Positions 18,254 through 43,781 of a stretch of 64,000 bases of DNA are shown here, piece by piece. Below the pieces are notes generated by a model, which had not been told where the DNA came from, searched no databases, and saw only the letters and a program-made list of their open reading frames with translations. Position 1 is the stretch's first letter, and every line of letters starts with the position of its first letter. The position numbers and the translations under genes are program-made. Source of the stretch: Dudresnaya verticillata (Eukaryota); contig OZ374565.1 of NCBI GenBank assembly GCA_977862235.1, positions 1,550,001 through 1,614,000 of the forward strand, in the 5' to 3' direction.

Positions 18254-18297
18254 ACTCGCGAGAGGTGGAACGCCGTGAGGCGGGGATGGCGGCGCCC

Positions 18298-20778: not shown

Positions 20779-20802
20779 GATACCTTAACGGAACACAACG
20801 GT

Positions 20803-20964: not shown

Positions 20965-21004
20965 TTCCAACCGTGACGGTGTTCTAGGTCGGGAGACCAA
21001 AAGA

Positions 21005-21947: not shown

Positions 21948-22856
21948 TGCAGTGCCAGGGGGGGTCCCCCGTTTTCGCTTTCAAGCGTTGATATGCAGCG
22001 TCTACCGACGGACGACCGCCAACGGCGCGCTCAACCCGCCCGCGGCGCAAACACGTCACCGACGCATGCCGCTGGCCACTTGGGCCAGAACGGCTCGCTG
22101 GGCGTGCAGACCGCACGCCTGAACCCGGCCACTATACGGCGCCACGCGTACGCGCATGGCGCAGTGGCGGGAATGTTCGCTGTAAGCGTGGCCCGAATCC
22201 GGATCCAATCGGGATCTCACATCGGGATCCCACATCGGGATTAAGGGGTGTAAGACACGCGCCTGTAAGCCTGGCGCATCCGCATCGCTATCCCGAATCC
22301 GGACTGGATCGGGATTGGTGCGGATCGAGATCGCTCGCGCCATGAGGCGCATGCGGCTGTAAGAAAGTAATCCACGTGTAGGTGTAAGGACTCGAGCGGG
22401 GGAGCTACGCGCGATCTATCAGGAGCGCGGCTGCATGACGGACGAATCTGTCAGACGCGCCTCGGGACAACACGTGTCCCGAGTTCCCGCGTTACGCGTA
22501 CATCCGCGTCGCTGCCGCTAGGTAATCCTGTACTTATTTGATCCGTCTCAGACGTCATAGTAAACCCCGGCAGGCCGGCCTTGGTCCAGACTTCCCCGTT
22601 CAGCACGCGCGTACCTTACCGCTGCCTACGGCTAAGCGTCTACCCCCGTGCTTCCACGTCTCTACCCGTCCTCGACGTGTTCCCTTTCTGTTTTCTTTTG
22701 TTCTTCTTTTCCGCCAAGGGCGTTTACAGTCCGCCCAAGGCGAGTCAACCGCTCTACCACCAGACACCCACGGCGAGGCCACTCATCGCCGCAGGCGTCG
22801 CTACCCACCGAGCCCCGAACTGCTCGGCGGTGTCCGTCGTCGACGTTTGCACTACA
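21948..22856 (+). repeat. 5' LTR of gypsy B (909 bp)
   Basis: TG(C/T)AGTGC...GCACTACA inverted termini, followed by the PBS at 22859. Confidence 0.85.
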
Positions 22857-22858
22857 AC

Positions 22859-22876
22859 TGGTCTCCCGACCTAGAA
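22859..22876 (+). promoter_or_regulatory. Primer binding site TGGTCTCCCGACCTAGAA (tRNA-Tyr-like)
   Basis: Lies 2 nt after the LTR; identical 18-mer at 34901 and (reverse complement) 20982. TGGTCTCCCG complements the GGGAGACCA 3' end of yeast tRNA-Tyr. Confidence 0.75.
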
Positions 22877-23852
22877 GTGTGCTACGTTGCAACGAGCTAC
22901 TCCGTCGTGCGACGTCCGACCTTCCGTCTCTAGACGTTCCTCGCTAATCGTCCACGACGTTCAAGCAACTCTACGACTGCATTATGGCCTCACGACCGCC
23001 GCCGTCGCGAGGCCCCAGTTCAAGAAGACCGTCATCGGCGCCGGGAAGTGCTCCCGCGTCGGAGCGGTCGCTACAGCGGATGACAACGAGGTCTGGGCGC
23101 CTCGTGAGCCCAGAGATCGCATCGGCCTTCCCAACTGGTCCGGGCCACGACCAATCCCACATATCGCTCAGCAGGGGAGAAGTACCTCCCCCGCTGGTAC
23201 CCGTCGTTATTCGCACCACCGTTCCGAACGAATCGGCCCTCCGAACTTACCACTCGCACGTGGATTCCGTGACACGGTACAAGCCGAACAGCGACCCGTC
23301 GAGGACGGAGCCCAAGCCGACATCGTCGAGGAACAACCGGAAGTTCCGGTTCACCAACCAACCTTACCCGTCAACGACGACCAGGGACGCCCTGCAGGGC
23401 GCGACGTCGTAGAAGAATCATCAATCCCAAGGGGCTGCTGCCCCTCACCCCACGGCAGTGCCGGATGTTCACCGGCCAGGCCGTTAGCGCAACCGCGCAG
23501 CACGGGAGGTCCGCCGCAGGCGTCGACCCCCGCGCACACACCGCCAATGGCGTCCCCAGCATCCGCCCGCGTTGGTAATCTCACGATACCTCGCGAGCGG
23601 ATTCGGGAAGTATGCGTCGCCGAAGACGATAACTTACTCGCTCGATTCGCGGAAATGCTCGACGAAAATGTTGGAGGTATTTTCAGCCGTCTGCAGACGT
23701 TGGAAGAATATCGGGACGGCGCCCTTCAAGGACTCCCCGTTCCGACCTTGACCGTCTGGTGACGAACCCCAACCACGGGGTAGATGCCCCGCAGCCAACG
23801 GCATTGAAGGCCCACTCTCAGTCTGAACTGAGTTCACGCGAACGTTTTCAAC

Positions 23853-25541
23853 GTGGCAACCCGCTTAGAGCGACTAGAAACCGCCAAATGGCACCAAGGG
23901 CCGCCGTCCGATGACGATAGTTCCGAGGAAGACCGTCGACGACGCAAAGATCGTAAGAGACGGGGCAAGAAACGCCGCAAGTCGCGTCATCGACGGAAGA
24001 AGAACCATCGCCGACGAGGGGACTCATCCTCATCCTCTTCAGACTCGTCTAGTGACGGCGGGTCAACAGACTCTTCGTCGTCAGACGATTACGACAACGT
24101 GACTCACGGCAGTGCAATGCGACCCCGCAGAAAGCGATACAAGGGACTGAAGGAGCTAAGCCCCTCCAATCCTCTCTTCGACCAGTTGCTATCGTACCGC
24201 ACATACCGTCTCCAAGACGTGGGACAGAAGCGCTCTGGACGCGAAACCGGGAAGGTCAAAGACCATATCAAGCGACTCGAGTTAACGATGAAGGACGCCG
24301 CCTTCAACGGCAGCGACCCCGTCATGGTCTTCGAATTCTTAACGCGGTTCGCGGATGAGGCGGACACGCTAGAGATGAGCGAAGCACAAGCGTTCATCGC
24401 GCTGCCGTACTTCTTAAGAGGTACGGCAGCGACGCAATTTCGCTCCGTCAAATCGACGTCCTCTCGCCACCGCGGCGGCGTATCATCGTACCCGGAGGCG
24501 GTGCACTATCTACTCTGCACACACTCCACGCCTTCGGCGATTCGAGACGCTGTCCTCGCTCTGCGGTCGACTAGTCAGAAGCAGGGCGAAGACGAGACGA
24601 CTTACGGCATGAGACTCGCCGGCGCAAGTATTCGTTGTGGTAACGTTTATCCCGAATGGGAAAATATGACACTGTTCATCGATGGGTTAGACCCGACGAT
24701 CAGGTCCTTAGTGGCCCGCTTCCGCGAAGAAAAGCCGAGGGCGGAGATATCTTTCGAACGTTTAGTCCACTTCGCCCAGGACGAAGGCGACGCGCAACGC
24801 GCAAGACACGGCAGGGCCGGCTCGACGTCAGTAAGACGGGATATATTGGCCCCAGCCCAAGCCGCTCGCGCATCGCGCCCCGCCATTGGCGACAACCGAA
24901 CGGGTATACGTCAACAGACGAGGGGCACGAAGCCTGCCGCACGTACTATGGTAGCGGAGTCCTCCGTTGAGTTCCGTGATGTCACCCGTCATGCGGACGA
25001 TATGGAAACACACGCCGATGGCAATCTCTATTTGGCCGATGAACAAGCATCAGTGCCAACGTCAGCGTTACCTACGGACAGCTACGTCGAAGACGGGGAC
25101 ACAGAGGCGATGGATCCTACACTCGCCTTTGGGCGTTCCGTTGTGCCCGCGCCACGCGTCCTGTACTCGGAGTATGCCCCCCACGTCCATCGGGCGAGGC
25201 CAGGTTGGCAAGATAGGGGTCCGCCCCGTCAAGACGCTCGCAGACAGTTGATCTGTCATCAGTGTCATGCCCGTGGCCACATCGCACCGGACTGTTTCCT
25301 CCGCATGAGCGAGTATATGAAAGCGATCGCCAACTACGAAGGCTTAACAGACGCCGAGAAGACGGGGGTCCCCGCCGATGCGTACACTCGGTACAAGGAA
25401 CGCGCTGCGCGCGAAGCAGCACGCCGTGCAGCACGACCACCGTCGCCACGAGGCGGACCTATGCCGCATGCAGCAGAGCGTCATCCGACGGTGGTCAATC
25501 GCTACACAGCGCCGCTACAACCGCCGCAGGCGAAACACTAA
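23853..25541 (+). CDS. gag: Gag of gypsy B (N-terminal part probably in 22887..23762)
   Basis: Homologous to A gag (YRTYRL, FNGSDP, FIDGL); CCHC knuckle CHQCHARGHIAPDC. Confidence 0.85.
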   Translation: MATRLERLETAKWHQGPPSDDDSSEEDRRRRKDRKRRGKKRRKSRHRRKKNHRRRGDSSSSSSDSSSDGGSTDSSSSDDYDNVTHGSAMRPRRKRYKGLKELSPSNPLFDQLLSYRTYRLQDVGQKRSGRETGKVKDHIKRLELTMKDAAFNGSDPVMVFEFLTRFADEADTLEMSEAQAFIALPYFLRGTAATQFRSVKSTSSRHRGGVSSYPEAVHYLLCTHSTPSAIRDAVLALRSTSQKQGEDETTYGMRLAGASIRCGNVYPEWENMTLFIDGLDPTIRSLVARFREEKPRAEISFERLVHFAQDEGDAQRARHGRAGSTSVRRDILAPAQAARASRPAIGDNRTGIRQQTRGTKPAARTMVAESSVEFRDVTRHADDMETHADGNLYLADEQASVPTSALPTDSYVEDGDTEAMDPTLAFGRSVVPAPRVLYSEYAPHVHRARPGWQDRGPPRQDARRQLICHQCHARGHIAPDCFLRMSEYMKAIANYEGLTDAEKTGVPADAYTRYKERAAREAARRAARPPSPRGGPMPHAAERHPTVVNRYTAPLQPPQAKH

Positions 25542-25719
25542 TAAGGGTACCGACTCCTGACACTGGGGTGTCGCACCACGCAGAGAGGCTTCCGCCTCGG
25601 GTGCTGACACGGAAGGAGTGCCCGAACTTAGTTAACAAACACGCCGATAGGCGGGTAGACTCGTCACGGACGTCCTTGAAGCGCCCCTGGCGTAGGTACC
25701 AGCCCCCACAAGCCCGGGG

Positions 25720-28700
25720 ACAGTTGCTCGTAATGGCCAAAAGGAACTACAAAGTATACGCCGATCTAGGCGAACTGTAGGCACCTTGGCACGTAAACTC
25801 ACTGTCCTCGACACGGGGGCTGGTCCGAATTTCATCCGTATTGACGATATTCCGCTAGAAGCGCGATCGCGGATCGTATCCAAGAGTCTCCCCGTCATAC
25901 CAGACGCTAACAACAAGGCGATTCAGACCCGGGGCACTATCGACTTAGTCGTACGTCTCGGACGAAGGGTCGTCAAGTTGGAGTTGATCGTCTGTGAACG
26001 GCTCGCTGCGCCGGTTATACTTGGTTGCGACTTTTGCGACCGCTTTGTCGAAGCGATTTATCCGCGGAGTCGCGAGATTGAGTTGGACGACGGGACCCGT
26101 GTTCCTATAACGCGCCGCCCGCTGCGCCGGCCCCCGTCGTACCCCCCGTTGCCAACGGAACAACAGTACGGCACGGCCGGAGGACGAACGTCGCCCAAGA
26201 TACGCGTTGCGGAACGAACAATCATCCCGCCACAGGCATAAAAGTGGATCTCGGTAACGACCGAGCGAGCAGGGGTCATTACCATCCAACCGTTTGGAAC
26301 TTAATATGATCGGCAAGCTTTGGCCGTTACTAACGGGGTCGCTCAAGTAGAGCCTCTGCGAGTGTTCCGGATTCTCGTCGCAAACTTCTCCCCGCGTCCG
26401 CAAGCGCTCGTCAAAGGACAAGTCGTCGCTACCGCGTTTCCACATCCCACAGCAGTGTTCCCCAGTCACATAAGCCTTGCCGATGTCCTAGGTATCACCG
26501 AGGAGCAGGCAGCGAGGAAGAGGCGAATCAAGATTTCCGTTTTCAAACGAATGATGGAGTAACGGCACTGCCGGATACATTCGCTAAGTCGATCGAAGCA
26601 ACTGTAGCGAAACCTCCGTCAGTGGACGAGTTGGACCTGAGTCATCTCTCAGCCGAACATCAAGGACGGCTGAAGGAGATGCTGCGCAGGTACTCGTCGA
26701 TGTGGGACGGTTCATTAGGAGAAATCGCAACCACGGAGCACTATATTGACTTGCTCCCCGGCTCCAGGCCGATTTCATCCCCGCCTTACCGCGCTGGCCC
26801 AAAGCAAAGGCAACTCTCTCAAGCGGAGGTGGATCGCATGTTGCGTCAGGGGGTTATCGAACCCGCATAATCGCCATGGGCGTCGTTGGTCGTCTTTACT
26901 CCCAAGAAGGACGGTACACTCCGCTTCTGCGTTGACTACCGTCGCTTGAACGCAGTAACGGTACGAGATACGTACCCTCCCCCACGACTCGACGAATGTA
27001 TTGACAGTCTAGGGGAAGCGAACGTCTTCACCACCCTAGACTGCAATAGTGGTTACTGGCAGGTGCCCATCAACCCGCGAGATCGCGACAAGACGGCGTT
27101 CACGTGCCATGCCGGATTGTTCCGCTACAAGCGTATGCCCTTCGGACTTACTAACGCACCGGCCACGTTTCAACGGACCCTCGATATCCTGCTTGCTGGT
27201 TAAAAGTGGCGCTCCTGCCTCGTCTACCTTGACGACGTGATCATCTTCTCGAACGATATCGACAGTCACTTCCGTCATGTTGACGAGATCCTTTCGACCT
27301 TGAATCGGGCCGGGGTAACATTGAAGTTAACCAAGTGCGACTTCTTCACCCCGACCGTCAATTATCTCGGCCATGTGATACGTCCGGGACGATTGGAAGT
27401 AGACCGTACGGTCACACCCGCGTTACGCGAGGCCAAGCATCCGCGGGACCAGAAGGAATTACGGAGCTTTCTCGGATTATGCAACGTCTATAGACGGTTC
27501 GTATCGCGATACGCGCATGTCGCCGCTCCCCTCAACAAATTGTTAAGGAAAGAGCAAGACTTTCAGTTACAACCGTTCACCGAGGAGCAAGCTCGGGCAT
27601 TCAGTACGCTTGTCGAAGCGGTGACTCACCCACCCATCCTGGCGTTGCCAGAGCAAGGACTACCGTACTCCGTCGATTGTGACGCGAGCGAATACCAAGT
27701 TGGCTGCGCACTCTTTCAAACGCAGCCCGACGGCGAACGGAAGCCGCTTGGCTTCTAGTCACGCTCGTTAACCGCTCCGGAGCGCAACTACTCGGTATCC
27801 GAAAAGGAATGCTTAGCGGTAGTCTGGTCGATCACGACGTTGACACCGTACCTTCAGATGGAGTCCTTCGTAGTCCATACGGACCATTCTTCATTAAGGT
27901 GGCTCATGGAAATCAGCGACCCCTCGGGACGGTTAATGAGATGGCGCCTTCGCCTCTCTGGGTTCGACTTCGTCGTGAAGTATAAAAAGGGGTACCTGAA
28001 TACTCAGGCAGATGCCCTCTCACGTCTACAGATGAACGGCGAAATTGTCGAGCCAATCGACGATGATATCCCGTGTTACCACGGGAGCTGCGTCAAAGAC
28101 GCGGACCGCTCGTCAGAGGACGGCTACGCTCACGAAGAAAGCGATACGTCAAACGCCAAGAGCGAAATCGATTTCTCCGAACGAGACTTCGAGTAGTTTG
28201 ACCAGATGTTGGTTACCAGCGCACCACCGGCGGATGAAGTGCTCCTCCTTCAATTGACGCATGAAGAGTTGGTGCATGATCAGGGCAGTGACCAGTACTG
28301 TTCCGAGATCCGGAAACGTCTAGACGACGGAGACAACCTACCGTTTGCAACGGACGAACAAGGACTATTGGTTCGGACCGTCGAGGCCCGACCCCAAGTC
28401 GTTGTACCATCCGCGTTACGCGTTCGATTGCTCCACCTCCGGCATCATGCTAAATTAGCAGGGCACCCCGGAGGGCGGAAACTATACCATACGCTTCGAC
28501 GCGAGTATTATTGGCCGTCTATGTCGGTGGACTGTTACGCGACCGTCCGCAATTGCGTTACTTGCGCGAAGAACCGGGTACTGATGCGAAAGAACGTGAG
28601 AGAGATGAAACTGTTCCCGGCAACCGAGCCTCTCGAGTTTGTGTCCATCGATATACTCGGGAGCTCATACGCACTAAGCGGGGGAATAAGTTCCTACTCG

Positions 28701-30283
28701 TCATCGTGGACCGCTTCTCAAAGCTGGTCCGGACGGTTCCCTTACGTAAGATTACGGCATTGGAAATCGCTAAGGCGTTTGTTGGACACTGGGTGTTTGT
28801 GTATGGCCCACCCAAGAAGCTGCTGTCCGACAACGGGCCGCAGTTCGTAGCCAAGTTGTTCCAGGACGTCTGCCGCATATTATGGGTGGAGCATCTCTTC
28901 ACCACTACATACCATCCGCAGTGTAACGGCCAAGTGGAACGATTCAATCGAACCATCCTCGCCTCCCTGCGTCACTACGTAGCAGACCACCCCAGGGACT
29001 GGGATTTGTTCACCGATGCCCTGACGTTCGCGTACAATACGCAACTGCACTCGTCTACCCACCTCGCCCCATTCGAGTTGGTGCTATCTAAGCCCCCGCG
29101 GCCATTGTCGCTGGAAGCGGAGCCATCGCTTGAAAGCGTGCCCACTGCCGGACAGTACTACACCAAATGGCGAACCTGGCTGTCCGCGTTGGTGGGAACC
29201 GCTAACGCGTCGCTCGCGAAAACGCAGGCGCGTTACAAACGGAACTTTGATACACGTCTGAGGAAATCGAAGGAGAACATCGCTGTGGGAGACTTCGCAT
29301 TCGTGCGGAAGGAATACTTCGCCCACGGCGGGAGCACCGATCGCTCAGAGCGCAAATACAAGCTCGCACCTGTAGCGGACGTACCGTATCGAGTAACACA
29401 CGTCGAAGACGGGACAGTCACCGTCGATAAGGGACGTGGCGAACGCGAACGCTTATCCCGAGACCGCGTGGTATGGGCGCCAATCCCACCAGGGCACACC
29501 GCCCCCGCAACCGTGCAACCACCGGGACCACCTGACGTACCGGGACCCACGGCCCCCACGTCAACCGACGAAGGAGCAGGAACCCCGGACACGCCACAGG
29601 CGGACCCGGCAGGAGGCACAGGGACACCGCGCAGCACGAACGACTCGCAGGAGCGGATGAATGCAACGCCACGAAGCCGCGGGTTAGCAGAGCTTTCGCC
29701 CTTTGCCGCTAACCCTGACGACGGCGTATCGCAATCCGTCTCCGACGAGGAGGAGGGTCCAGGCATCCGTACATGAATGGGACACGCAACCTCGGCTTCG
29801 CCGGCTACCACGGTAGGTCCCGCTTCGAGCGCATCGACTGACGATGAGGGAGACCGCGCTAACGCGAAGGACGCCGCTAGAAGCGAGGAACCAGTACGCA
29901 AAAGCGACGAACCACAACCCACTACGCAAGCGCTCGGGGCACCGACCCAGCGCCTCAGGCGATCGACTCGTCGAGTACGATTTGCCGAACCGGTGCAGAC
30001 GCCCATCACGGAACGAAGTGAGCCGCCCAAGGCGTTAGAACGGCAGGAGCCCACGTCGCTCGCTGCAAGCGAGAAGGAGTACGTTATCGAACGGGTTGAG
30101 TCGCACGCACACGCGGAAGACGGTGAGATCCTCTACCGCGTCAAGTGGTTTGGATACCCCGCTTCAGCGAATACCTGGGAACCCGTGTCCAGTCTACCGC
30201 GATCGCACGTCGTGCGGTATCACCGTCAGAAGCAAACGCGCCTGCCGCCAAACATCGACGACGCGCAACGCGGGTATCCCTAG
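25720..30283 (+). pseudogene. pol: Pol of gypsy B: PR-RT-RNase H-integrase-chromodomain, many stops and frameshifts
   Basis: LDTGAGPN; RFCVDYRRLN; MPFGL; YLDD (~27223); DCDAS; HPGG/CVTC; SDNGPQF; NGQVERFN; 'EYVIERVESH...YRVKWFGY...NTWEP'. Confidence 0.95.
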
Positions 30284-31488
30284 TCAGGGTGGACGCTGGA
30301 AGCGACAACACACGACACATACGAGCTGACGCGAACGTGCACTCGTTACGGACGACGGGGGCGACAGGCTGTAATCAACCGGATCAAGGACTACTGGGTT
30401 GGCGACACGCGAATAGGCAACCCTCTTCGGAGGGGGTCCGTAAGGACAGAGCAGCTGACAGTAGTCAGAAGGCGTGTGGAGGGCGCACGCACCACACGAA
30501 ATCGGGCAACAACGAAAAGGAAAATTTTAATGCGAAAATAATAACGCGGGCACCAGCCAGGCGGCGGCGCCCAACAAACGGGAACCTGACAAGTGTGTAC
30601 CCCAGCACTACGAACGCCCACGAGGCAACCAAGCACGGACGCGACAAACCGTCTCCGACGTCCTCGCCCAAGCGCGCCACTCACGGCCAAGTCCAAAACT
30701 CGTCACCCTTACGGGCGGCGCACGCAACCGCCTCGAGAGTGACGCTCGCGAACGTCAATGACGGGTCTCAAATCGAAGAAGGGGTCGCCCGCAAACATTA
30801 GAGAAGAAACAGTCGTCGAAGACGGAGATGGGCTACGTTTCGTGCATGACGCGCTAATCGCAAAAATGACTCCGCCACTGGGCGCGGCAGCCACGCCCAG
30901 GAGTCGCAGGAAACGCGCCCCACGCGCGGCGCATCGCCAAGCTAACCGTCCCCGACGCTAACCCAACATGCCCTACGTCAAAGACGAAAAGCCTACCGAC
31001 AAACGGCTCCCCAACTACATAGTCGCTCAACAAGCGGAACCACAATATGAACAAAACGACTAAGTCGGCATGAGAAAATGGACCCTCCCAAAAGGGGTTA
31101 CGCTACTGTAGCGGCATCGAGAAAGGAGAAAAACGCCACCAAGGCGGCACCGCCCCAAGCCTTTACGCAAACGCTACTTCAGCGAACAGACAACAACAAC
31201 GTCTATTCGAACGCGACCCGTCGGCTACATACTATTCGCTCTCGCAGCGCTCTACATCAAGCGGACACACAAGCAACTACGTTTTAACAACGGTCAAGTT
31301 TGTTCGGGCTTCACAAGCGAGGGTAACCCCCGTGCCCGCATGACCTTCCACCACGACCTACGTCGTGAGACGCGGCACTAACCGTCTATGACGTATGAAT
31401 CCCTCGCTCGCCGCCCCAACACGAGGCAGGCAGAGCGACACCACACGCGCTCTCGCGTTTGCTAACCGTTCTTAACGATCCAACAACG

Positions 31489-33770
31489 CTACGGTTTTTT
31501 CGTCGCAGACGGCTCAGATGGGGCATCATCCCCGACGCCATTGGGGGATTCTCTTAACGCCTCTTCGTAGAGGTCGTCTTCCGTCACTGACGATGCACTC
31601 GCAGCAGGGGCAGGGACGGACCGCAAGGGACCCGCCACAACCACTGCTGTCGAAGTCGCGACATCCGCCGCTGGCGCCGCATCTGGCTCACAATCCGCCT
31701 TAGGCGACGACTGTCCGTCAACCGCCATAGGCGCAACGTCAGGAAGCTCACTCGCCTTTGGCAGCGGAGCATCCTCAACCGCCTTGGGTGAAGTCGACGG
31801 CCCCGGCACCTCCGGTGACGGGACCGCATTAACCGCCAAAGGCGTTGAACGATCAACATCCGTCACCGACGAAGAGGCCACTAGAGCCTGCGGAACCGCC
31901 GCAGGCGCTACCATCGCACTCGCCTTTGGCGGACTTTTGTTAACAACGTCAGTGGACGCAATGGCGGACGAACCCGCACAACCCGCCTTAGGGGACAAAG
32001 GCTTTTTCGCCACTCTGTCATTAGACGCCGCACCTTCGTCGTTAGACGGCACAGTCGCAACGACGGTCGACGCCGGAACCGCAGCAACGCTGGGCTGCAG
32101 AGCAGCCAGCAGCGAGTGCCCGAGGGGCGTCGTGGATGACCTGCCCGACCCGTCAGTGACGACACCGGTAGCTCGCAAGAATGCGAGCACTGTGCTACGC
32201 TGCTCCTCAGTCCATTCGGGCACTGCAGGAGGGCGATGCGCACCGTCAGCGACGTTAGACACTCCACCTTGAGGCGTAACTACAGGCGCAGAACTCGCCA
32301 TGGGCGCAGCCATGATGGCATCACCATCACCCTCATTGACGGGCGCCGAGAGATCCAATGGCGCAACCGACGGCAAGCCAACAGGCACAACAGCCGACGG
32401 TCCTACCGCCGCTGGCGAAATCGTCGCGGGGGCTGTCGCTCCCGCAGAAAGCTCAACCGCCATAGGCGTAACGATGTCCGTCCCAGAAGGGTTAACTGGT
32501 CCGCTGTTAGCGTGGAACGCATCCTCCTCCGCCATCAAGGCGCTCCAGTGGGGTGGGAAATCCCCCGCAAAGTCGCAATTCTTGCGCAACCCACGTGGGT
32601 GATTCGCTGCCGTGAAGCGGTCCGTACGAAGATGGCTCTGAGCGATGTTCTCCGTTGTAAGACGTTTGGTCCACGGGTTGTACCATACCAAATCGCCACA
32701 GGCGGAACGATTCCTACTCATCGCGTAACGCGGACGGTTTACCTTACGGCGCCGGTTTCCCGGCGGCACAGCTGCCGGGTCGTCCCAGTTGACGTTATCC
32801 CCCACATGGCGTAGATCCCAGAACTCTTGGCAGTTCCTGGCACCGCCCAGTACTTCAGTCAAGCCAAGCCCGCCAAGGAGACTGAATACACGTGGCGGCA
32901 CATAATAGAGCCGGAAGGTGTCATACACCTCCCACATCCATGCGTAAGTTACGTTGACGACCCACTCGGTGAAAAACACGATCCAACATCGGGAGTACGG
33001 ATCCGTCCGCAACTCGGAGCCAATATACGTGACACACGGAGGCAATTCAGCCGCAAAGCCCTCGCAGACCTCAAAGTCCCGCCACAACGGCGGGACGCGA
33101 ATGAAGCAATGCGGCAACTTTTCCCGCTCAATGCGATCAACTTGCGTATCTTGATACGGTACAAAAACGCCTTTGCGGCGACGCGTTTCGCACTCCCAAC
33201 GGACGCAGCGCTCCCAATAGAAGGTGCCCGTCCTGTGCAAGTATCGGAAATCCGCTTTCAAGCGTACACCAAGGAGGTTAGCCTCCTGAAGCACCCGCGG
33301 CTCAGCCAAAACAGCCACAAGGCTTAATGACAACGTCCCAAGATGGTCCCCACCTACCTCACCATTTGTGCGGTACTGCCCTTCGTCAAATGCAAAGACG
33401 GTGGGCGTCAATACCGACCCCGGATAGCGGGTAAACCGCCGATACACGTCAACGACGAAACGCGCATGCGCATCTGCACGCGTCTGGCCGGCGGCAATAC
33501 GCAGCCAACCCCTCGGAATGGCGCACCGATGGCGCCACTCGTTCGTCCACACGACGGCCAGGGGCAACTCCCCTGGAAAAATCCGCTCACAGCGTAATGG
33601 TTGATGAGGTCCTCATGTCGCGGGGCCTCCTGGTCGAACCAGGGGGCCCGCGAGAATAAGCGGGCATCGTTGCGGGGAGTCCTCCCGACAAAGTCGAATG
33701 GTGACGGATACACCGGCGCCGCCGAAGGCGCAGCCACTCGTAGGCCGTTGAACTGTGCCATTACGTCCAA
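31489..33770 (-). CDS. Additional antisense ORF of gypsy B: Trp/aromatic-rich globular domain + Ala/Pro/Ser-rich tail, one frameshift near 33575
   Basis: 692-codon ORF 31489..33567 plus upstream piece 33408..33770, located between pol and the PPT. Confidence 0.75.
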
Positions 33771-34239
33771 GACGTTGAGTAATCACACGCCACTGGCGGA
33801 GTTCATACGATACGTCAATGACGGTTCTGGGACTTCGAAGTCGAGTCAACTACGCCAAAGGCGGAAGCACACAAAACACACGTCAACGACGCTAGACTGA
33901 ACGACGCCGAAGGCGGACCGCAAAGAAACGCCCTAGGCGGTAAGCGTACACACGCGTGCAAAGATGCGACGTCAACGACGGGGTTTCACGCACGCCACTG
34001 GCGAAGTTGGTCAACGACACGTCTTCGACGGGGAATCTTCCTACGCCAAGGGCGGGGAAAACTGCACGTGCGTCTTTGACGGGGCTCAACCAACGCCAAG
34101 GGCGGGCAAACGCAGACGCGAAGACGCGGGTGACCGACACGATCGGCACTGGAAGAGACGTAGGCGCGGGAAAGCAGGCAGGCTGAAGCAGGTTGACGTG
34201 TTTGCGTTTTCGGAGGGGGTCGTGTAGTGCCGGGGGGGT

Positions 34240-34895
34240 TGTGGTGAAGTGAGATTCGGCATCCGAAACGGTGGAAATGCATATAGTGTGGCCTGAACCG
34301 TTGTGGGATGTGTGCACGCGTACTCGTGTCGGTTTTGGGTGCATTGTTGTGTGCTGGCGTACATTGTTGTGCAGCAGTGGAGCGCACCAACCGAAGCGGA
34401 GTATTTGTAGTGTTTATTCTTTATTTTTAGTGAGTATCTGTACAGTATGTAGAGTAGTGCGCCAGCCAATGAGAATGCTGCGCATGTCCGTGTCGGAGAT
34501 TGGGACCAGCAGGGCCGATTCCACCATGGGTCCAGACCACTAGGGTCTGGCCCCCACGGACCGGACCGCTCGGTACCACCCTGACTTGTATATCAGGGTG
34601 GCACCGCAGCGGCTCCTAAGGTAAACGGGTAAGCAACCTTAGCCCAATCCTTTACGGTTTTCCCCGCGCCGAGCCCGTTGCGGTCTACCACCACCACCGT
34701 TACGGAGTCCGTCCCGGCACTTGTACCACCCCCTTGTCTGTTGCTTCCCAATATCCGTCTCGGTTAGCCGCTCGCTGTTCTCCCGTCTCGGTGCGAACTG
34801 CTCTACCACCCCGTGGAGGTAGTGTTGCTCTCGTCCGTTAAGGAAAGTCAGGCCAGCTGTCCGTCTCGGAGTTCGTGGGTTTTCACTACACCACA
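34240..34895 (+). repeat. 5' LTR of A2
   Basis: Direct repeat of 43126..43781; TG...CA termini. Confidence 0.97.
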
Positions 34896-35043
34896 TCTTT
34901 TGGTCTCCCGACCTAGAACACCGTCACGGTTGGAAGAAACAGCTGTCGAAATCCGCTACAGTAGGAATTCGGCTGTACCGACAACCCGTTACGGAATATT
35001 GGATAGACAAGCAAGAACAACCGTTGTGTTCCGTTGAGGTATC

Positions 35044-37519
35044 ATGCAGAACGAAGAACACGCAGACCCTCCCGTTACGGAACCTAAATCGGATGACACT
35101 ACCCCCGCTGCGCGCAGTCTGCGCAGTGAAGGAGGTGAAATCCGTTCCGGAGTGGAGAACCCAGAAGACATCCTAAAGGGTGCTGCTGGTAAAGCTCCCC
35201 GTTCCCGTGTCGGATCAGACGCCTCGAAGAAGGCAGCTCCGCAACCCAAGCCGGAATCCCATCGGGTCCACTGGGTCCTGTCGGAGGTCCTTCCTAGGGT
35301 GTTAGAGCATCTCCGATTGGAAGTACAACCTGGAATGGTAAAAGAGGTGGAGATATCCCTCTCGGAAACTGTTCCGTCTTTGGTTAATTCCTATCTGGAA
35401 CAGCACCTTCCTCGGATAGTGCAAGCGTTGATCCTACAGGAAAAGGTGGCCGCCGAGCTCGAGAGCCAGATTACTCCCGGCATGGCAAGGCCTCCCGCTA
35501 CGGAAACTTTCACTGAGCAACCACCGTTACGGAATGACTTCCCGGTCGAGGGAAGAACGCAGCAGCCGCAACAACCCCCCGTTATGGGATTGCCGCCGGG
35601 CACAGTACCCTCTGGGCCACTGCCACCGGCTCCCGTAACGGATTCTCAACATCAACACGCCCCTACGGGACCAACACACACTCAGCCACCGTTACGGTAT
35701 TCTCCTGGACATGTAGATGTGCCTACGCCAAGGCGCTATCAGCACGAGCGCTATACCGTTCCGGCTCGATCAGGTGGAGGCAGCGACCATCTCAGCGATG
35801 CGTCCAGCTCACCCCATCCGAGTCGGAGGACCGGTCGAGGTCGGCATAAACGAGATGCCCGACACTCCCGCTCTGACCCTCCCCGTCGGTCGCACATGGG
35901 CGACCACACCCAGCGACGACGCCACCAATCCGGTATGGAATCCAATGAGAGCAGCTCAGAGGATAGCCAACACCGCCGCCGCAAGAGGAGAAACCGAAGA
36001 TCGCGGAAACGCGAAAAAAGGCATGACTCATCTACCTCTACGGATTCAGACTCAGAGAGTTCTTCCGTAATGGATAGAGAGAATAGGCACCGCGCCAGAA
36101 AACACGGTGCCAAATCCGGAAAGGTTAAGGTAATCCGGCCGCTACATGACAAGTTTGTCAAAGCGCTGGACTACCGCACCTACCGATTGGATAAGAGGAG
36201 TAAGACCTACGGCTCTAAGTTCTCACAGAACATGAGCCGTATACGGAAGAAACTCGACGTCCAGATGTCGTCCCATACATTCGATGGGACGGAGCCTATT
36301 ACCGTCTTGGGATTTCTCGCTAAGTTCCGTGATGGTTGTAACATCAACGGCATCACCGAAGGGGTTGCCGTCTGGTGCTTCCAGTTTTTCCTTAAAGGAC
36401 AGGCCGAAGCCCTTCTACAGGCTAGGCTTGCTGGAGGTACCATGGCGGTTGACGTGGAGCAGTCCGAGATGCTCCGCACATATTCCGAGGTGGTGAACTT
36501 TTTATTGAGAACCTACGCTACGGATGAAGTGATTGCTGAAGCCTATACGGATGTCAGCAACTTCAGGCAAACATCCGCCATGACGGAAGAGCAGTTCTCG
36601 AACCAGCTTTGGGCCAAGGCTCTCCGTTGCGGTACAGTATTTTCCGATCGGGCATTGAAGTCACTGTTCGTTGAAGGACTCCTACCGGGTACTTGTCAAC
36701 AGATGAGAAATTATCTAGCGACGCATTCCCAGTCGGATTACCAGGCCATCACTCGCTATGCGACTGGCCTGGGTCAGTCCCATCGGGCATCTCGACGCCA
36801 AACCGTTCCGGCTCACGTCTTTGATGGGCGCACTAAAGCGCGCCCGTCTAAGGTGTTGTCGCTGGATTCCGTATCGGATATACACTATGAGTCGCAAGGG
36901 AATCGTTCCGCTACGGATAATCAAGTGCTAGCCGTCGAGGGAGGCCACGGTGCCGGGAACGAGCACGGGGGTTACCTTTTCTACCCCGTACTCCTCGCCC
37001 CCGCAAAGCGTCCACCCTACTCCGCCCAGGATGCCACGCGCGCAAGGTCCCCCCTATGGTGGACCTCGCCCGGCTCCTGGCCCCCAACAGCAGCCGAGTC
37101 ACCGTTACGGAAATAATGCCCACGATGGGCGAGGACAGCAGCAACAAGCACCTCCGCTACGGGATGAGTCGGATCCTCGGGTCCGACGCCTTTACGGAAG
37201 TGGTAACTGTCGCATCTGCCTTTCGCCAGAGCACGTTGTTTGCCCATGGATACAGGACTCCGATCGGGTTTGGCTCATGGAAGAGCGCGAGCGCAACTTC
37301 CAGAAGCACTACCCTGTAGGTCGCAGGTTCGTAGTAGGAACCAGTTCGAATCCGCAAGGGAATCGGGGCAGACCGCAAACGCCCCCTCCGCAACGGAATG
37401 CCCCGATACTATCGGTGGAGGACCATGAAGGAGTGAAACTCGCAGAATTGCGCGAGCCCATGGAGGCGGATCCGACTGGTGCAACCTTGAATTCGGAAAA
37501 CTCAAGGGGGGATGCGTAA
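35044..37519 (+). pseudogene. gag: Gag of A2, frameshifted by a ~5-bp deletion near 36955
   Basis: 35044..37116 plus 36950..37519 together match the 826-aa A1 gag. Confidence 0.9.
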
Positions 37520-37563
37520 GGGCGCCGCCATCCCCGCCTCACGGCGTTCCACCTCTCGCGAGT

Positions 37564-40500
37564 GTGGACCCGCCAGGGGATCGGCGAGATACCGTTACGG
37601 AACTCCCATTGGCTTATCAGACCAATGATACTATCTTCTTTATGCAACATCAAAATTACAAGATGCAAATTACCGTGGGACGGACAGATAGCGTGATGCT
37701 TCCTTTAATCTCTGTCTTGGACTCTGGCGCTGGGCCCAATCTCATTAGTGCCAGGCGCCTTCCGCGCCAATGGCTCCCACTCATACGCCCAGCAGCCAGT
37801 CCTCCATTACGGGATGCGTCTAATCGCGCTGTACGCCCTCTTGGTCAGATCCAACTTTTCGTCCGTATCGGAGAGCTCCGTGCTCGCGTTCATTTTCTAG
37901 TGGTCGCGAACTTGGCGGCTCCCTGTATTTTGGGAACTACCTTCATCGACCGCTACGTGAAGGCCATCCTCCCGCCGTTACGGAAAGTTGTTTTTCATCA
38001 TTACCCACCGGTATCCCTTGTTGGCCAAGCCAAAATTCCGAAGACGGGAACCACTGCCACCCTACAGCCCTCACCTCTTTCTACCGCTACGGTTTCTCAG
38101 AAAATTCGTTTAGCAACATCTACCCTTATTCCCCCTATGACTCAAACCACCGTAACGGTTAATACCCCCACGGGTGGGTTATGCTTTCTACAAAATCATC
38201 CTAAGCCGGCTTTTAAACACCTCACGTTAATGGCTAATGGTATTATGGATGTTGTACCTAATACACCGTTTCGGATCTGGGTCTCTAATGTTTCTAACAA
38301 GCCGGTACGGTTGCCCAAATCTACTGTCGTGGGCCTCGCTACTGCTGCCCCTTCTGCTATTTTTACCGTTGACGGTATACCTCCATTTAAGGAGGGGGAG
38401 GAACTATTCAATCATTTAATTCTAACCCTACCTCCGAAAAGGCCAGCAGCATCTCCCCTCACGACAAGGAAATAAGCAAACCCGTAACGGAAAATAAAAA
38501 TACTCCCGACTGGAAGGATCAAGTCCAGATCGGCACAGAAGAAGCATCGCTCCGTAAACGGATTCTAACCCTACTCGAGGAATATAAGTCGATGTGGAGT
38601 GGCGATCTTGGCAACATTACAGCTGCCAAGCACCGCATCGAGTTAACTCCCGGAGCGAAGCCAGTATATCAAGCCCCATACCGTGCCGGACATAAGCAGC
38701 GAGATCTCGAGAAGACAGAGATCGATCGCATGCTTTCCGCTAAGGTAATTGAACCAGCCTCATCGGAGTGGGCCAGCCCCGTGGTTTTCGTTCCAAAAAA
38801 GGACGGCACCATGCGGTTCTGTGTTGACTATAGAAGGCTCAATTCCGTAACGGTTAGGGACTCATATCCCTTGCCCAGGATGGATGAGTGCATAGATTCC
38901 CTTGGGGAAGCTACTGTTTTTACCACCCTGGATTGCAATAGCGGATATTGGCAAGTCGAGATTCCGGAAGAGGAAAGGGACAAAACTACCTTCACTAGCC
39001 ATTTTGGCTTATACCGTTTTCGGAGAATGCCATTCGGATTGAAAAATGCACCGGCAACCTTCCAACGGGCAGTGGATATAATCCTTTCTACGGTTAAATG
39101 GCAATTTGCCCTCGTCTACCTAGACGATGTAATTGTCTACTCAAGAACCGTTACGGAACATTTCCACCACTTGAAGGAAGTCCTTACGCTTTTACGATCC
39201 GCTGGGGTAACGTTGAAAGTGTCAAAGTGTGACTTCTTCAACGCGTCTGTACAATACCTGGGGCATGTTATCCGTCCCGGAAAATTAGAAGTGGATAATC
39301 GGAATATCCAATCCGTTAAGGTCGCGAAGCCGCCGACAAACCAAACGGAATTGCGATCCTTCTTGGGAATGTGTAACGTGTATCGTCGCTTTGTACCCAT
39401 CTTCGCTCGGATTTCAGCACCACTAAATAAGAAAACCGGCAAGGGCTCACCATTTGAGTTTGGAATATTATCCGACACGGAATATGAAGCCTTCGAGGAA
39501 CTGAAGAGACGCCTTATCTCTCCACCTATATTGGCTCTACCCCGTCACGGATATAAATATACGTTGGACACTGACGCATGTGACCACCAAGTCGGCTGTG
39601 TCCTTCTGCAGGAACAACCGAATGGCGATCACCTCCCTACTGGATATTGGAGCCGAAGCCTCACCGATGCGGAGAAAAATTATACGACAACCGAAAAGGA
39701 ATGCTTAGCCGTGGTCTGGAGCATGTTAACACTCCGACCCTACCTTTACGGTGATAAGTTTATTCTCCGAACGGATCACGATGCCCTGCGGTGGATCCTG
39801 AACCTCGCAGACTCATCTGGCCGCCTTGCCAAGTGGAGGCTCCGCCTATCGGAATTTGAATTTGAGGTGCAATACCGTCCTGGAATTAAGCATCAACTCG
39901 CCGATGGGATGTCGCGACTCCGAACGGATGGCGGTGACGATAGACCTTTGGATGAAGAGATACCCTGCTTTGTCGCCGAAAACACCGTCGACGGATTATA
40001 TGAGCATGGAGTATATTTAACCGATTGGGCCACATCACAAGAAACCGCTACGGAAAATAACGTAATATGCGCCGTGGAGCCCGCCAGTGGGAGTGCATCC
40101 GCCTCCCCTAGCCCGACGCAATACCGTCACGGTTTACTGTAATCCAAGAATCCGACGTTAAGGATGAGACAATTACCAGGGAGGAGTTCCTTGAAGCGCA
40201 AGCCCGAGACCCTTTCTGTCGTCTCAAAGCCGATACGGTAGGCTCCCCTGGATCACAGTTTGACTATGGCCGTAACGGATTCTTGGTACGCAAGTCCCAA
40301 TTGGATGGTGCTCTGCAGAAGGTGGTGCCAAGCGAACTCCGTAGACGGGTATTGTATTTATCCCACTACACCCTGATGTCGGGTCACCCAGGCGGAATTA
40401 AGATGTATTATACACTCCGACAGGATTATTATTGGCCTCATATGGCCAACGATGTATTTGAATCCGTTCGGACGTGTCGCTCCTGCGTGAAGACAAAGGG

Positions 40501-41846
40501 AACCCGCTTTCGGAACCAAAGATTTATGAAGCTTTTCCCCGCTAGCGGACCTTTGGAGTTTGTCGCTATCGACATTGTCGGGCCACTTCCGAAGACAAAA
40601 AGGGGTTATGTCTACGTTTTGGTAATAACCGATCGGTTTTCTAAGCTGACGCGCTGTATTCCGTTACGGACAACAACAGCCGTTGTGGTGGCTAACGCCT
40701 TTCTGGACTTTTGGGTGTACGCCTACGGCGCACCCCAATTTGTCCTAACCGATAACGGACCGCAGTTTACTGCTAACTTCTTCGACGCGGTGTGTTCCTT
40801 ACTCGGAGTCAGGCACCTGCTCACCGCTGCCTACCATCCGCAGACAAATGGGCAAGCTGAGCGATTTAATAAGGCAATCGCTCAGCGTTTGCGCCATTAC
40901 GTTGAGGATCATCACTCCGATTGGGATCTGTACCTGCTACCGTTGACGTATGCGTACAACATGCAGGTACACCGTGTTACGGAAACAACGCCATTTGATT
41001 TGGTGCTGACACGCCGCCCATCGGATATCGTTGTACGAGGGGCTCCTGTCGAGCATCAAGAAACCGTTACGGAAGGGCGTATGACCCCGGTGCTACAGAA
41101 GCGGAACACCATGCGCCGTTTACGGTATGCGCTCCAGACAGCGCGCACTAAGCAAACAGTGGCTCAGCAAAAAGCCAAGGCACTGTTTGACCGTAAGGTG
41201 CGCTTTAGGCCTATAATCCGTAACGGAGATCACGTCTATGTCGACAGGCCGCCCCATAACTTGCGGCCTGCCGAACGCCGTGAACGGGACCGATTGGAAG
41301 GCAAGCCGGATGATGTAGGCGAGGTGGCTCAGGAAATGAAGAAACTCCTTCCGAGAGCCACGGGGCCTTATGAAGTGGAATCCGCAACGGAACATGTCGT
41401 TACAATCCGAAAGGAAGGGGTATTGATCCCCGTAAGTATCGATCGGATCACGAAGGTTCCGATCGGATCACGAAGGTTCCGATCGGAGTTGCGGTTCAGC
41501 CGGCACCATTACCAGTGCCGCCTGTCACGCCATCAACCGCTACAGAGAAGTAGTGCCACACCCAGAAGGTACTACAGTAGTACCTCCTTCTGAAGGTACT
41601 ACTCCCTCCGCGACGGAACCACTGCAAGCCGATACGGAATATGTGATCGACAAGATTGTCGGTCACCGCGACGAACCTACTGGGATGACGTACAAAGTCC
41701 GCTGGTATGGTTACCCTCCGGATCAGGATACCTACGAACCCGCCGAGGAATTGCCGCAGAACTTCATCTACCGCTATTGGAAGCAAAAACGCAAGAGCTC
41801 CGCTAAGGGAAAGCCACTGCGACGCCCAGCCAAGGTACGCCGCTAA
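37564..41846 (+). pseudogene. pol: Pol of A2: PR-linker / RT-RNase H / integrase / chromodomain
   Basis: LDSGA; YLDD; DTDAC; HPGG..CRSC; TDNGPQF; GPY; 'EYVIDKIVGH...YKVRWYGY...DTYEP'; frame breaks at ~38400-38475, ~40100 and 41441. Confidence 0.95.
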
Positions 41847-43125
41847 CCGTAACGGAAAACAAGCTACTGTCGCTTGCGGTAATCGCAACTCCCCGCGATG
41901 TGGCGACCCGGTTACGGGAACTGCGTCTTGTCGACGCCTGCTACCGTTACGGGATGTCGTTGCTGCTCCAACTGGGGCATACCGCTCCGTCACGGATTTT
42001 GCCAGCGTGGGTCGCGTACCCTGCTGATGACGCGACCCATTTCCCGAAACGGTACTCTCGTTTTTCCGCAATATCGCAGCCGGCGTACTTTGCCCAGGTT
42101 CCACCGCTTACGCGGCACTCTTCCGTCACGGAAATCGCTCTGAACACCCCTTCAGCCACCGTAACGGTGTTCGTCGTTCACCTTTCCGGGAGGGGCACGC
42201 CTTTTTCTTGCGATGGGCGGCCGCCCCAGCATGTTTGGGCCAAGAACGGCCCCTTCCGCGACGGTACAGGAAAATTCCTGGGTCTCATTATTCTTCTCAG
42301 AGTCCCGGGGAATATATTAATATTGATGTTAATATTAATATTTTCAATATATTATATTGAAAATAATATATTAACACCGTCGCGGGTTGGGTTCATCTCA
42401 AGAGGAAGAGGTTCGTGGTGTGTCTCATAAGGGCAGGAGTGAAGGTACTCGCCTGTAACCGCTACGGATTCCTGAAACACGCCGCCTGCGACGGTTTGTG
42501 GCGTACCTAGCCCCCCAACTTCTCGACACCCAAGTCGGAACAACTTCCGTCAGAGGTAACGGGTGTGAAGTACCGTCATCCGATCGGAGTACGAATTGTC
42601 CATTGTGGATATGGGAGGGTAATCGACTGCGCGGTCGAGCAGACCGTTGGGGAAGCTTATTCCGCTACGGTGAGAGCAACACTCTCCAAGAGTGTTTGCT
42701 CCTTTATGTGTGGTAGGACCCCCATGTCGGATTTTTGCAAATGCGGCTGTCTGTGAGGTGTCTGGATTGCACACCCGTTACGGTGAAAGAGGGGTAAGTT
42801 CTGGCGTCTGCTCCGCTGACACACTGGAGTAACCCGTTGCGGATGTTTTATGAGACCGAAGACTGGCGACCAGCCTGGGCAAGGAATCCTTGCGGATGGC
42901 GCGCGACACTCGCGTCAAGCGCGTTTTGGTTATTCTCCGTGACGGAAGTCCTGGTCTTGGAGGTGCGTGGGGTTTCCCAACGCATCGAAGCAGACCGTGG
43001 CGGCAGTAGAGCAGTTGACGAAGGACCTGAAAAAGCTGCTCGAATCCGTTGACCGTGCCTCGCACCCAAGTCGCAACTCCATCAAGGTGGGCGCACGAGG
43101 ACGTGGCGCCATTTCAGGAGGGGTC

Positions 43126-43781
43126 TGTGGTGAAGTGAGATTCGGCATCCGAAACGGTGGAAATGCATATAGTGTGGCCTGAACCGTTGTGGAATTTGTG
43201 CACGTGTATCCGTGTCGGCTTTGGGTGCATTGTTGTGTGATGGCGTACATTGTTGTGCAGCAGTGGAGCGCACCAACCACAGCGGAGTATTTGTAGTGTT
43301 TATTCTTTATTTTTAGTGAGTATCTGTACAGTATGTAGAGTAGTGCGCCAGCCAATGAGAATGCTGCGCATGTCCGTGTCGGAGATTGGGACCAGCAGGG
43401 CCGATTCCACCATGGGTCCAGACCACTAGGGTCTGGCCCCCACGGACCGGACCGCTCGGTACCACCCTGACTTGTATATCAGGGCGGCACCGCAGCGGCT
43501 CCTAAGGTAAACGGGTAAGCAACCTTAGCCCAATCCTTTACGGTTTTCCTCGCGCCGAGCCCGTTGCGGTCTACCACCACCACCGTTACGGAGTCCGTCC
43601 CGGCACTTGTACCACCCCCTTGTCTGTTGCTTCCCAATATCCGTCTCGGTTAGCCGCTCGCTGTTCTCCCGTCTCGGTGCGAACTGCTCTACCACCCCGT
43701 GGAGGTAGTGTTGCTCTCGTCCGTTAAGGAAAGTCAGGCCAGCTGTCCGTCTCGGAGTTCGTGGGTTTTCACTACACCACA
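43126..43781 (+). repeat. 3' LTR of A2
   Basis: Direct repeat of 34240..34895. Confidence 0.97.

What the first reader, a model, noticed from the sequence alone, without database searches (positions are those of the whole stretch)
34240..43781. Gypsy family A carries ~22 copies of the palindrome CCGTWACGG, many inside coding sequence
By eye I count 22 exact copies in 9.5 kb (34697, 34986, 35072, 35524, 35633, 35689, 37102, 37592, 37975, 38150, 38482, 38845, 39148, 40270, 40661, 41064, 41218, 41847, 41944, 42159, 42775, 43583). About 20 more CCG-N3-CGG variants occur (CCGCTACGG, CCGTCACGG, CCGATACGG, CCGCAACGG). Chance expectation is about 0.1. A1 shows the same pattern, and I saw no exact copy outside family A. 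The sites are dispersed through LTR, leader, gag, PR, RT, IN and 3' region with unrelated flanks, so simple tandem duplication does not explain them. Inference: a family-specific barcode for a dimeric DNA-binding protein (everted CGG half-sites as for Zn2Cys6 factors; conceptually like VANC anti-silencing motifs of VANDAL transposons), or an RNA packaging signal or a mutational sink.
Basis: partly seen in the sequence, partly recalled or inferred. Interest (0 to 1): 0.87.

Follow-up and report, generated by a model that had tools for sequence, protein, structure and literature searches.

The report
Family-specific palindrome barcodes in seaweed retrotransposons
A red-seaweed jumping gene has the short mirror-symmetric word CCG-NNN-CGG written 77 times through its genes and non-coding DNA, a neighbouring related family carries a different mirror word, and many relatives carry tiny hairpin-forming repeats of a fixed lineage-specific shape, which likely serve as self-recognition marks read by a still unidentified protein.

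Summary
Confirmed and larger than reported. All 22 CCGTWACGG sites are at the stated coordinates; copy A1 has 12 more and 49.8 kb outside family A has none. The full motif is WW-CCG-TNA-CGG-WW (77 CCG-N3-CGG in A2). It survives a codon-preserving shuffle (14 vs 0.46) and fills 14 of 15 positions the protein allows. The element is a red-algal chromodomain Gypsy. Family B in the same window has its own mark, CG-xy-N3-y'x'-CG, whose arms covary and stop at exactly 4 bp. 55 of 93 related loci, against 3 of 60 distant Gypsies, carry excess short perfect inverted repeats whose geometry follows the RT tree. In four relative groups, stem positions show lower synonymous divergence than other sites. Best reading (0.45): selected, lineage-specific self-marks read on DNA by a symmetric protein that co-evolves with the element, VANC-like in logic but not a VANC system. 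Reader and function are not shown. RNA packaging signals, a host transcription factor and template-switch drive remain rivals. B also carries an antisense accessory gene with no fold match, but it does not track the marks. The scan noted a similar dispersed word in a fungal Gypsy before (e1-7136916).

The parts
34240..43781 (+). Gypsy family A copy A2 carrying 77 CCG-N3-CGG sites (22 exact CCGTWACGG); consensus WW-CCG-TNA-CGG-WW
34240..34895 (+). 5' LTR (TG...CA), 10 CCG-N3-CGG sites, about 15 per kb, the densest region of A
   Evidence: 98% identical to the 3' LTR; density
34901..34918 (+). Putative primer-binding site, same sequence as in family B (22859); tRNA not identified
   Evidence: sequence
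35044..37519 (+). gag, interrupted by a frameshift near 36.95 kb; sites dense in the N- and C-terminal parts, only 1 in the ~950 bp Ser/Arg-rich plus capsid part
   Evidence: weak Retrotrans_gag hit E 0.005 on the A1 frame
37429..40142 (+). Protease ORF (assigned from position and by eye, no Pfam hit) and RT-RNase H ORF; sites at conserved codons such as NSVTVR, RTVTEH, LPRHGY
   Evidence: Pfam RVT_1, RT_RNaseH
40112..41790 (+). Integrase, followed in another frame by a chromodomain-like segment (~41637-41790, recognised by eye)
   Evidence: Pfam rve, Integrase_H2C2; six-frame translation
41851..43125 (+). 3' region with 13 sites, an AT-rich palindromic island (~42310-42375) and a purine tract (43116-43123); no accessory-gene homologue detected
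43126..43781 (+). 3' LTR, 10 sites
17046..21680 (-). Family A copy A1 (5' LTR to start of RT), 12 exact and 36 N3 sites; the start of its LTR differs from A2 but still holds an exact site (21621)
21948..34239 (+). Related Gypsy family B with its own mark CG-xy-N3-y'x'-CG (113 perfect sites in 22101-34000; CGTC/GACG and CGCC/GGCG commonest)
33720..34104 (.). Family B array of marks at about 24-bp spacing, largely alternating CGCC-N3-GGCG and CGTC-N3-GACG, upstream of the antisense ORF
31489..33612 (-). Family B antisense accessory ORF (707 aa): a conserved ~340-aa domain with a confident model and no fold match, plus a low-complexity tail

Best explanation
The CCG-TNA-CGG sites are family A's version of a lineage-specific set of short symmetric marks that tile red-algal Gypsy elements, are likely held in place by selection, and would be read on the element's DNA by a symmetric protein (unidentified, likely element-encoded) so that each family recognises its own copies. 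Shown: enrichment, saturation of codon opportunities, family specificity within one host, strand symmetry, covarying arms and a fixed stem length in sister lineages, and lower synonymous divergence at stems in relatives. Inferred, least certain: binding at 5-15 sites per kb keeps the family's own copies active or protects and processes its cDNA, as VANC does for VANDAL.
For: Codon null exceeded 30-fold; 14 of 15 opportunities filled. Protein order itself favours the motif: full codon shuffle 0.07 vs synonymous shuffle 0.46. The Chondrus crispus relative P0095 and three unnamed neighbours (clade support 0.97 with A) keep motif-compatible peptides at homologous sites: TVTE in 3 of 3 covering the site vs 0 of 110 others, and RNGF in A vs RYGF, the swap expected when the central W flips (protein only, their DNA not seen). 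B: 118 of 248 CG-N7-CG are perfect complements; single-mismatch forms show no excess (5, 10, 41 vs control 8, 10, 38); the fifth pair is avoided (10 of 113 vs 31.4 +/- 4.5); coding count 56 vs 9.6. Sharp cut-offs recur: next-pair probability 0.10-0.17 in B, L030, L082/84, L147 and the triloop groups vs 0.23-0.30 in mark-free lineages. Geometry clusters on the RT tree. Mark-rich and mark-free families occur among 24 loci of one assembly. Fourfold-degenerate stem sites, defined on one sequence and scored among the others, diverge less: 0.117 vs 0.249, 0.098 vs 0.149, 0.128 vs 0.206, 0.128 vs 0.309; long-loop controls 0.216 vs 0.229, 0.119 vs 0.147, 0.177 vs 0.206; mark-free lineage 0.139 vs 0.150. 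Loop and flank preferences are largely reverse-complement symmetric, and folding excess is similar on both strands.
Against: No reader was identified. The obvious candidate, the antisense accessory ORF, does not track the marks: of 30 loci with it, 15 have the excess and 10 do not, and none was found in A. A itself shows no covariation, so linking it to the hairpin marks rests on kinship and the shared 3-nt spacer. Motif cores are not conserved between A1 and A2 (10 of 238 differ vs 97 of 4174 elsewhere). CpG transitions between A1 and A2 are not elevated (21 of 646 vs 45 of 1776, p 0.33), so there is no sign of CpG methylation to escape. Spacing is near random (CV 0.93 and 0.92). Some lineages show a modest sense-strand G.T(U) excess (ratios 2.4 vs 1.4, 1.9 vs 1.4, 4.7 vs 3.1) and A has CTA 7: TAG 0 cores, which fits RNA. 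The pairwise counts are not phylogenetically independent.
Confidence: 0.45

Rival explanations
1. Dispersed RNA packaging signals: each family's Gag recognises many small stem-loops of a set shape in its own genomic RNA, giving cis-preference over sister and parasitic elements.
For: Excess begins at 3-nt loops, the physical minimum (B: 5, 15, 118, 46, 29 perfect sites at loops 1-5). Fixed geometry and family specificity. Modest sense-strand G.U excess in some lineages. Predicted RNA hairpin energies of -1.4 to -5.3 kcal/mol for four example motifs. Multiple packaging signals in ssRNA viruses are recalled, not looked up.
Against: No G.U excess in B (5 vs 8.2) or the tetraloop groups (ratios 1.22 vs 1.20 and 1.11 vs 1.14). 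Both orientations are used in A (TTA 13, TAA 8). Loop and flank biases are mirror-symmetric, e.g. B flanks A..G 19 and C..T 19. Folding excess is no greater on the sense strand in most loci tested.
Confidence: 0.2
2. A host homodimeric transcription factor (Zn2Cys6-type everted CGG repeat, or Myb-type) is recruited by family A as a dispersed enhancer; the hairpins of other lineages are a separate matter.
For: A's arms are fixed, single-arm variants are about twice background, flanks and core do not covary, density peaks in the LTRs. Everted CCG-Nx-CGG sites for fungal Zn2Cys6 factors and the Myb site YAACKG are recalled.
Against: Only 26 of 67 sites contain YAACGG, and other Myb-type hexamers are not enriched. 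Related families in the same host use different marks. It does not explain covarying arms in B and relatives. Presence of Zn2Cys6 factors in this alga was not established (one search gave nothing usable; no genome).
Confidence: 0.15
3. Mutational drive: each lineage's reverse transcriptase (or host repair of the cDNA) turns near-palindromes into perfect ones by fold-back template switching, with selection only removing longer stems; the marks have no function.
For: Strict Watson-Crick pairing, no single-mismatch excess in B, L002 or the second tetraloop group, strand symmetry, near-random spacing, trait follows the RT tree. Quasi-palindrome correction is recalled.
Against: Self-templating gives complementarity, not specific bases: it cannot supply A's fixed CCG, T-N-A core and W flanks, or B's outer CG. 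Correction predicts paired double changes, but they are rare (8 of 1084, 0 of 434, 2 of 177, 0 of 316 comparisons) and no more frequent than in controls, while one-sided changes are about halved.
Confidence: 0.15
4. Artefact of composition, codon usage, tandem duplication or assembly.
For: A2 lacks a matching target-site duplication and joins family B on the left to family C on the right, so it may be a recombinant or a misjoin.
Against: Survives dinucleotide and codon nulls; unrelated flanks; present in a second copy; parallel marks in independent assemblies.
Confidence: 0.02

Closest known systems
VANC anti-silencing proteins and target motifs of Arabidopsis VANDAL transposons (Hosaka et al. 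2017, PMC5735166; abstract and passages read)
   Same: Short, family-specific DNA motif at high density within one transposon family; different motifs in related families of one host.
   Different: VANC motifs are non-palindromic, arrayed in one orientation, mainly non-coding and multiplied by tandem repeats in a DNA transposon. Here they are symmetric, written into codons site by site, in an LTR retrotransposon, and in sister lineages defined by base pairing. No binder or effect on methylation is shown here.
Plavaka PAG3 and adjacent inverted-repeat arrays in red algae (Petroll et al., bioRxiv 10.1101/2025.02.11.637652; passages read)
   Same: Red-algal transposon with inverted-repeat units proposed as targets of an element-encoded protein.
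   Different: DNA transposon; tandem arrays beside one gene; ParB-like candidate reader. Here the sites are dispersed over the whole element and no ParB-like domain was found.
Coding palindromes of Nematomorpha mitochondria (PMC6649704; abstract read)
   Same: Perfect inverted repeats embedded in protein-coding sequence.
   Different: Those are long (up to 284 bp) and organellar; these are 9-14 bp, of fixed geometry and family-specific.
Retand antisense ORFs with TRP28 domain (Vicient 2025, PMC11963269; abstract read)
   Same: Antisense accessory ORF of unknown function between pol and the 3' LTR of a Gypsy lineage.
   Different: Retand is a non-chromovirus land-plant lineage. B's ORF had no Pfam hit at E 1 and no fold match.
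Dispersed packaging signals of ssRNA viruses; HIP1 and DNA-uptake sequences of bacteria (all recalled, not looked up)
   Same: Many short signals spread through coding DNA by synonymous and mild amino-acid change.
   Different: Packaging signals are strand-specific RNA; HIP1 and uptake sequences are genome-wide and fixed in sequence. These marks are confined to single transposon lineages.

Membership tests
Ty3/Gypsy LTR retrotransposon with chromodomain | LTRs, PBS, gag-PR-RT-RH-IN order | tested here: met
Ty3/Gypsy LTR retrotransposon with chromodomain | Chromodomain after integrase | tested here: inconclusive
   Pfam Chromo E 2.5e-9 in family B; in A seen by eye only, in a shifted frame
VANC/VANDAL anti-silencing system | Short motif dense in one family and rare elsewhere | tested here: met
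   34 exact sites in family A, 0 in 49.8 kb outside; window only
VANC/VANDAL anti-silencing system | Motifs mainly non-coding, same orientation, multiplied by tandem repeats | tested here: not met
   15 of 22 exact sites in ORFs, symmetric, unrelated flanks vs passages
VANC/VANDAL anti-silencing system | Element encodes a VANC-type accessory protein | tested here: not met
   No Pfam hit for A's 3' ORFs or B's accessory ORF; no accessory homologue found in A
VANC/VANDAL anti-silencing system | Protein binds the motif and removes DNA methylation | not testable with these tools
   needs binding and methylome data; no CpG-transition excess between A1 and A2
Zn2Cys6 homodimer site | Two CGG half-sites with fixed orientation and spacing (recalled) | tested here: met
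   everted N3: 67 vs 0-13 at other spacers
Zn2Cys6 homodimer site | A cognate host factor exists and binds | not testable with these tools
   no genome; paper search uninformative
Dispersed RNA packaging signals | Stem-loops specific to the packaged strand, tolerant of G.U (recalled) | tested here: inconclusive
   no G.U excess in B or tetraloop groups, modest excess in others; similar folding on both strands
Template-switch palindrome drive | Paired double substitutions that restore complementarity (recalled) | tested here: not met
   compensatory cases rare and not above controls

The most novel reading that the evidence does not exclude
A whole clade of red-algal Gypsy retrotransposons runs a shape-coded self/non-self system on DNA: each lineage tiles its genome with mini-hairpins of an exact stem and loop size, its own protein reads that geometry rather than a word, and in family A the code has hardened into the fixed sequence CCG-TNA-CGG. 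The unknown-fold antisense protein may be an ancestral part of this system.
Probability: 0.25. Interest if true: 0.93.

Novelty: new variant of a known kind. Interest (0 to 1): 0.8.

Why it matters
How a transposon family tells its own copies from close relatives, and escapes host control without freeing the others, is an open question; the one worked-out case found in the papers read is VANC in a plant DNA transposon. Here a retrotransposon clade gives a natural series from no mark, through shape-only marks, to a fixed 9-mer, with sister families side by side in one host as controls. The accessory gene family (338 hits at E 0.001) is also a candidate new fold.

Tried and rejected
Whole-genome abundance: no genome held. 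Sequencing runs: none was listed, so no methylation, expression or copy-variation data. Hairpin reading of A's flanks and inner pair: no covariation (23 vs 22.9 and 29 vs 32.8 of 67). Even or nucleosome-like spacing: rejected, CV 0.93. CpG hypermutability: one search suggested it, but the matched test was not significant (p 0.33), so I dropped it. Myb monomer site: rejected as the main motif. Accessory ORF in A: two profiles and pairwise searches gave only non-significant hits; one database search of the plus-strand Cys-rich frame found nothing at E 1; other frames were not searched in that database. Accessory ORF as the cause of the marks: no correlation. Its fold: no match in PDB by Foldseek (best E 6.8), none at Z 2 or more among 48,161 chains, none among viral models; Atlas hits were weak and uninformative. 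A homodimer prediction for it was not obtained. No fetched locus had A's exact 9-mer more than twice; L008 has a weaker CCG-N3-CGG excess (32 vs 9.1) in another branch. The viral collection gave one distant locus. The methylase gene at 11832-13799 as writer of the motif: rejected, it lies outside both elements and matches the described PAG2 type. Nine paper searches returned no description of these marks; most were seen as listings only, the library lacks most subscription journals, and preprint supplements were not seen.
Full report
Observation. The 22 sites are real and correctly placed; the window has 34 exact CCGTWACGG against 0.40 expected. All are in family A: 22 in A2, 12 in A1 (17046-21680, minus strand), 0 in 49,825 other bases. 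The motif is broader than reported: 77 CCG-N3-CGG in A2, with a sharp spacer preference (N3 67, N2 10, N4 13, others 0-8, 3' LTR excluded) and a symmetric profile WW-CCG-TNA-CGG-WW. Flanks of the exact sites are unrelated.

The element. A2 has 656-bp LTRs that are 98% identical, a PBS, gag, protease, RT-RNase H, integrase and a chromodomain-like segment, with several frame breaks. Named RT relatives among the best 120 hits are from Agarophyton chilense and Chondrus crispus (one more carries a bacterial MAG label, probably host contamination), so the host is inferred to be a florideophyte red alga. A2 has no matching target-site duplication: its left flank is the first 17 bases of family B's 3' LTR and its right flank is an LTR of family C, so it may be a recombinant of two insertions.

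Not codon usage. In 5,748 coding bases there are 14 exact and 36 N3 sites; synonymous shuffles give 0.46 and 4.4. Wherever the protein permits the exact 9-mer it is present 14 of 15 times; for N3, 36 of 57; 39 control patterns reach 0-26%, the highest being the N4 variant. The nearest relatives (P0095 from Chondrus, P0067, P0008, P0023) keep motif-compatible peptides at homologous positions, including N/Y/H swaps that preserve the DNA word. Other A sites are not shared by them (for example TVTE at integrase residue 318).

A is one case of a clade-wide trait. Family B, in the same window and clade, has a different mark, CG-xy-N3-y'x'-CG. Its arms covary: CGCC..GGCG 35 and CGTC..GACG 34, mixed forms 2 and 1; 118 of 248 CG-N7-CG are perfect; single-mismatch forms show no excess; the fifth pair is avoided (10 of 113 vs 31.4); coding sites number 56 vs 9.6 under the codon null. 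The chromovirus C and Copia elements in the window show no such mark. Among fetched relatives, 45 of 80 metagenome loci and 10 of 13 close loci from MAG contigs have an excess of 4-bp perfect stems with 3-7-nt loops (ratio 1.5 or more, z 4 or more), against 3 of 60 distant Gypsies; 23 of the 80 have none. The 80 were the best of 602 from a partial scan; 6 short loci of the 78 were left out. The loci are related, so these counts are not independent events. Geometry follows the RT tree: 4+3+4 (B, L030, L002), 5+3+5 (L033 group, L147), 4+4+4 with outer C, often CT (L082, L084), 4-5+4 (L052 and L060 groups), long stems (L021-L056 group), none (L001-L075 group). Rich and free families coexist among 24 loci of one assembly. 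By this general census A itself scores only 1.31, because its mark is a fixed 3-bp arm; A shows no covariation of flanks or inner bases.

Selection or drive. Among related families (85-92% identical), stems diverge about half as much as chance stems, and compensatory double changes are rare and not above controls; L082 against L084 (70% identical) showed little difference from its control. At fourfold-degenerate sites, with stems defined on one sequence and scored among the others, divergence is 0.117 vs 0.249, 0.098 vs 0.149, 0.128 vs 0.206 and 0.128 vs 0.309; controls differ much less (0.216 vs 0.229, 0.119 vs 0.147, 0.177 vs 0.206, 0.139 vs 0.150). This favours purifying selection over continual template-switch correction. 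Against: between A1 and A2 the motif cores differ at 10 of 238 positions vs 97 of 4174 elsewhere, so these two copies show no constraint; they may simply be decaying.

DNA or RNA. Excess starts at 3-nt loops, which points to a physical hairpin. Pairing is strictly Watson-Crick in B and the tetraloop groups, with a modest sense-strand G.T(U) excess in three other groups. Loop and flank biases are mostly mirror-symmetric, and local folding excess is similar on both strands with RNA or DNA parameters. DNA is favoured, RNA is not excluded.

Candidate reader. B carries an antisense 707-aa ORF between integrase and the 3' LTR. Its ~340-aa domain has 338 hits at E 0.001 among 50%-identity representatives, including Gracilariopsis chorda hypothetical proteins (10 of 150 looked up), and is found in 30 of 80 loci, nearly always antisense and downstream of RT. 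The model is confident (pLDDT 91, pTM 0.90) and matches nothing in PDB or viral models; a missing match does not prove a new fold. It does not track the marks (15 with, 10 without, of 30) and was not found in A. Gag, RT or integrase-chromodomain are as plausible as readers; none was tested.

Mechanism. I commit to selected, lineage-specific self-marks read on DNA by a symmetric, co-evolving protein (0.45). An anti-silencing role is the least certain step: there is no CpG-transition excess between A1 and A2, and the Bostrychia preprint cites H3K27me3 for TE silencing in a unicellular red alga. Rivals: RNA packaging signals 0.20, host dimeric factor 0.15, template-switch drive 0.15, artefact 0.02.

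Known systems. It works like VANC in logic, but two defining features were tested and not met: the motifs are not non-coding tandem arrays (vs passages) and no VANC-type gene was found. Papers seen: PMC5735166 abstract and passages; bioRxiv 10.1101/2025.02.11.637652 passages; PMC6649704 and PMC11963269 abstracts. Zn2Cys6 and Myb sites, viral packaging signals, HIP1, uptake sequences and quasi-palindrome correction are recalled. Nine searches found no description of these marks; coverage is limited to the held library. An earlier unchecked note of this scan reports a dispersed lineage-specific word in a fungal Gypsy; there the word is said to be evenly spaced, whereas here spacing is near random.

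Verdict. New variant of a known kind; interest 0.8.

Noticed in passing
window 11832-13799 (-): ORF with an N6/N4 DNA methylase domain (PF01555, E 1.3e-10, DPPY motif) among tandem repeats; matches the description of the Plavaka accessory gene PAG2 type of red algae. SET domain and element ends not checked.
   Followed up: partly
window 31489-33612 (-): Antisense accessory gene family of red-algal Gypsy elements: 338 hits, confident model, no fold match; worth a study of its own.
   Followed up: yes
window 33720-34104: Regular ~24-bp ladder of family B marks, largely alternating two stem types, just upstream of the antisense ORF.
   Followed up: partly
window 34223-34239 and 43782 onward: A2 is flanked by the start of B's 3' LTR on the left and a family C LTR on the right, with no target-site duplication: recombination between two A copies or a misjoin.
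   Followed up: partly
window 42310-42375 and 42367-42760: AT-rich palindromic island in A's 3' region, followed by a Cys/His-rich, stop-interrupted plus-strand frame with no database hit; possibly a decayed accessory gene.
   Followed up: partly
window 21560-21680: The first ~120 bases of A1's LTR differ strongly from A2's yet keep motif sites, suggesting turnover with the mark retained.
   Followed up: partly
window 47671-53197: Copia element with 99%-identical LTRs nested in chromovirus family C; neither carries such marks.
   Followed up: no
L082-L093, L147 and other loci: Eukaryotic Gypsy elements sit on contigs labelled as bacterial MAGs, likely host contamination of those assemblies.
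   Followed up: no
L008: A separate branch shows a weaker CCG-N3-CGG excess (32 vs 9.1), possibly convergent with family A.
   Followed up: no
L152, L155: Distant Gypsy loci with enriched ATCG/TCGA-type palindromes (L152) and TAGCTA 14 vs 1.2 (L155).
   Followed up: no
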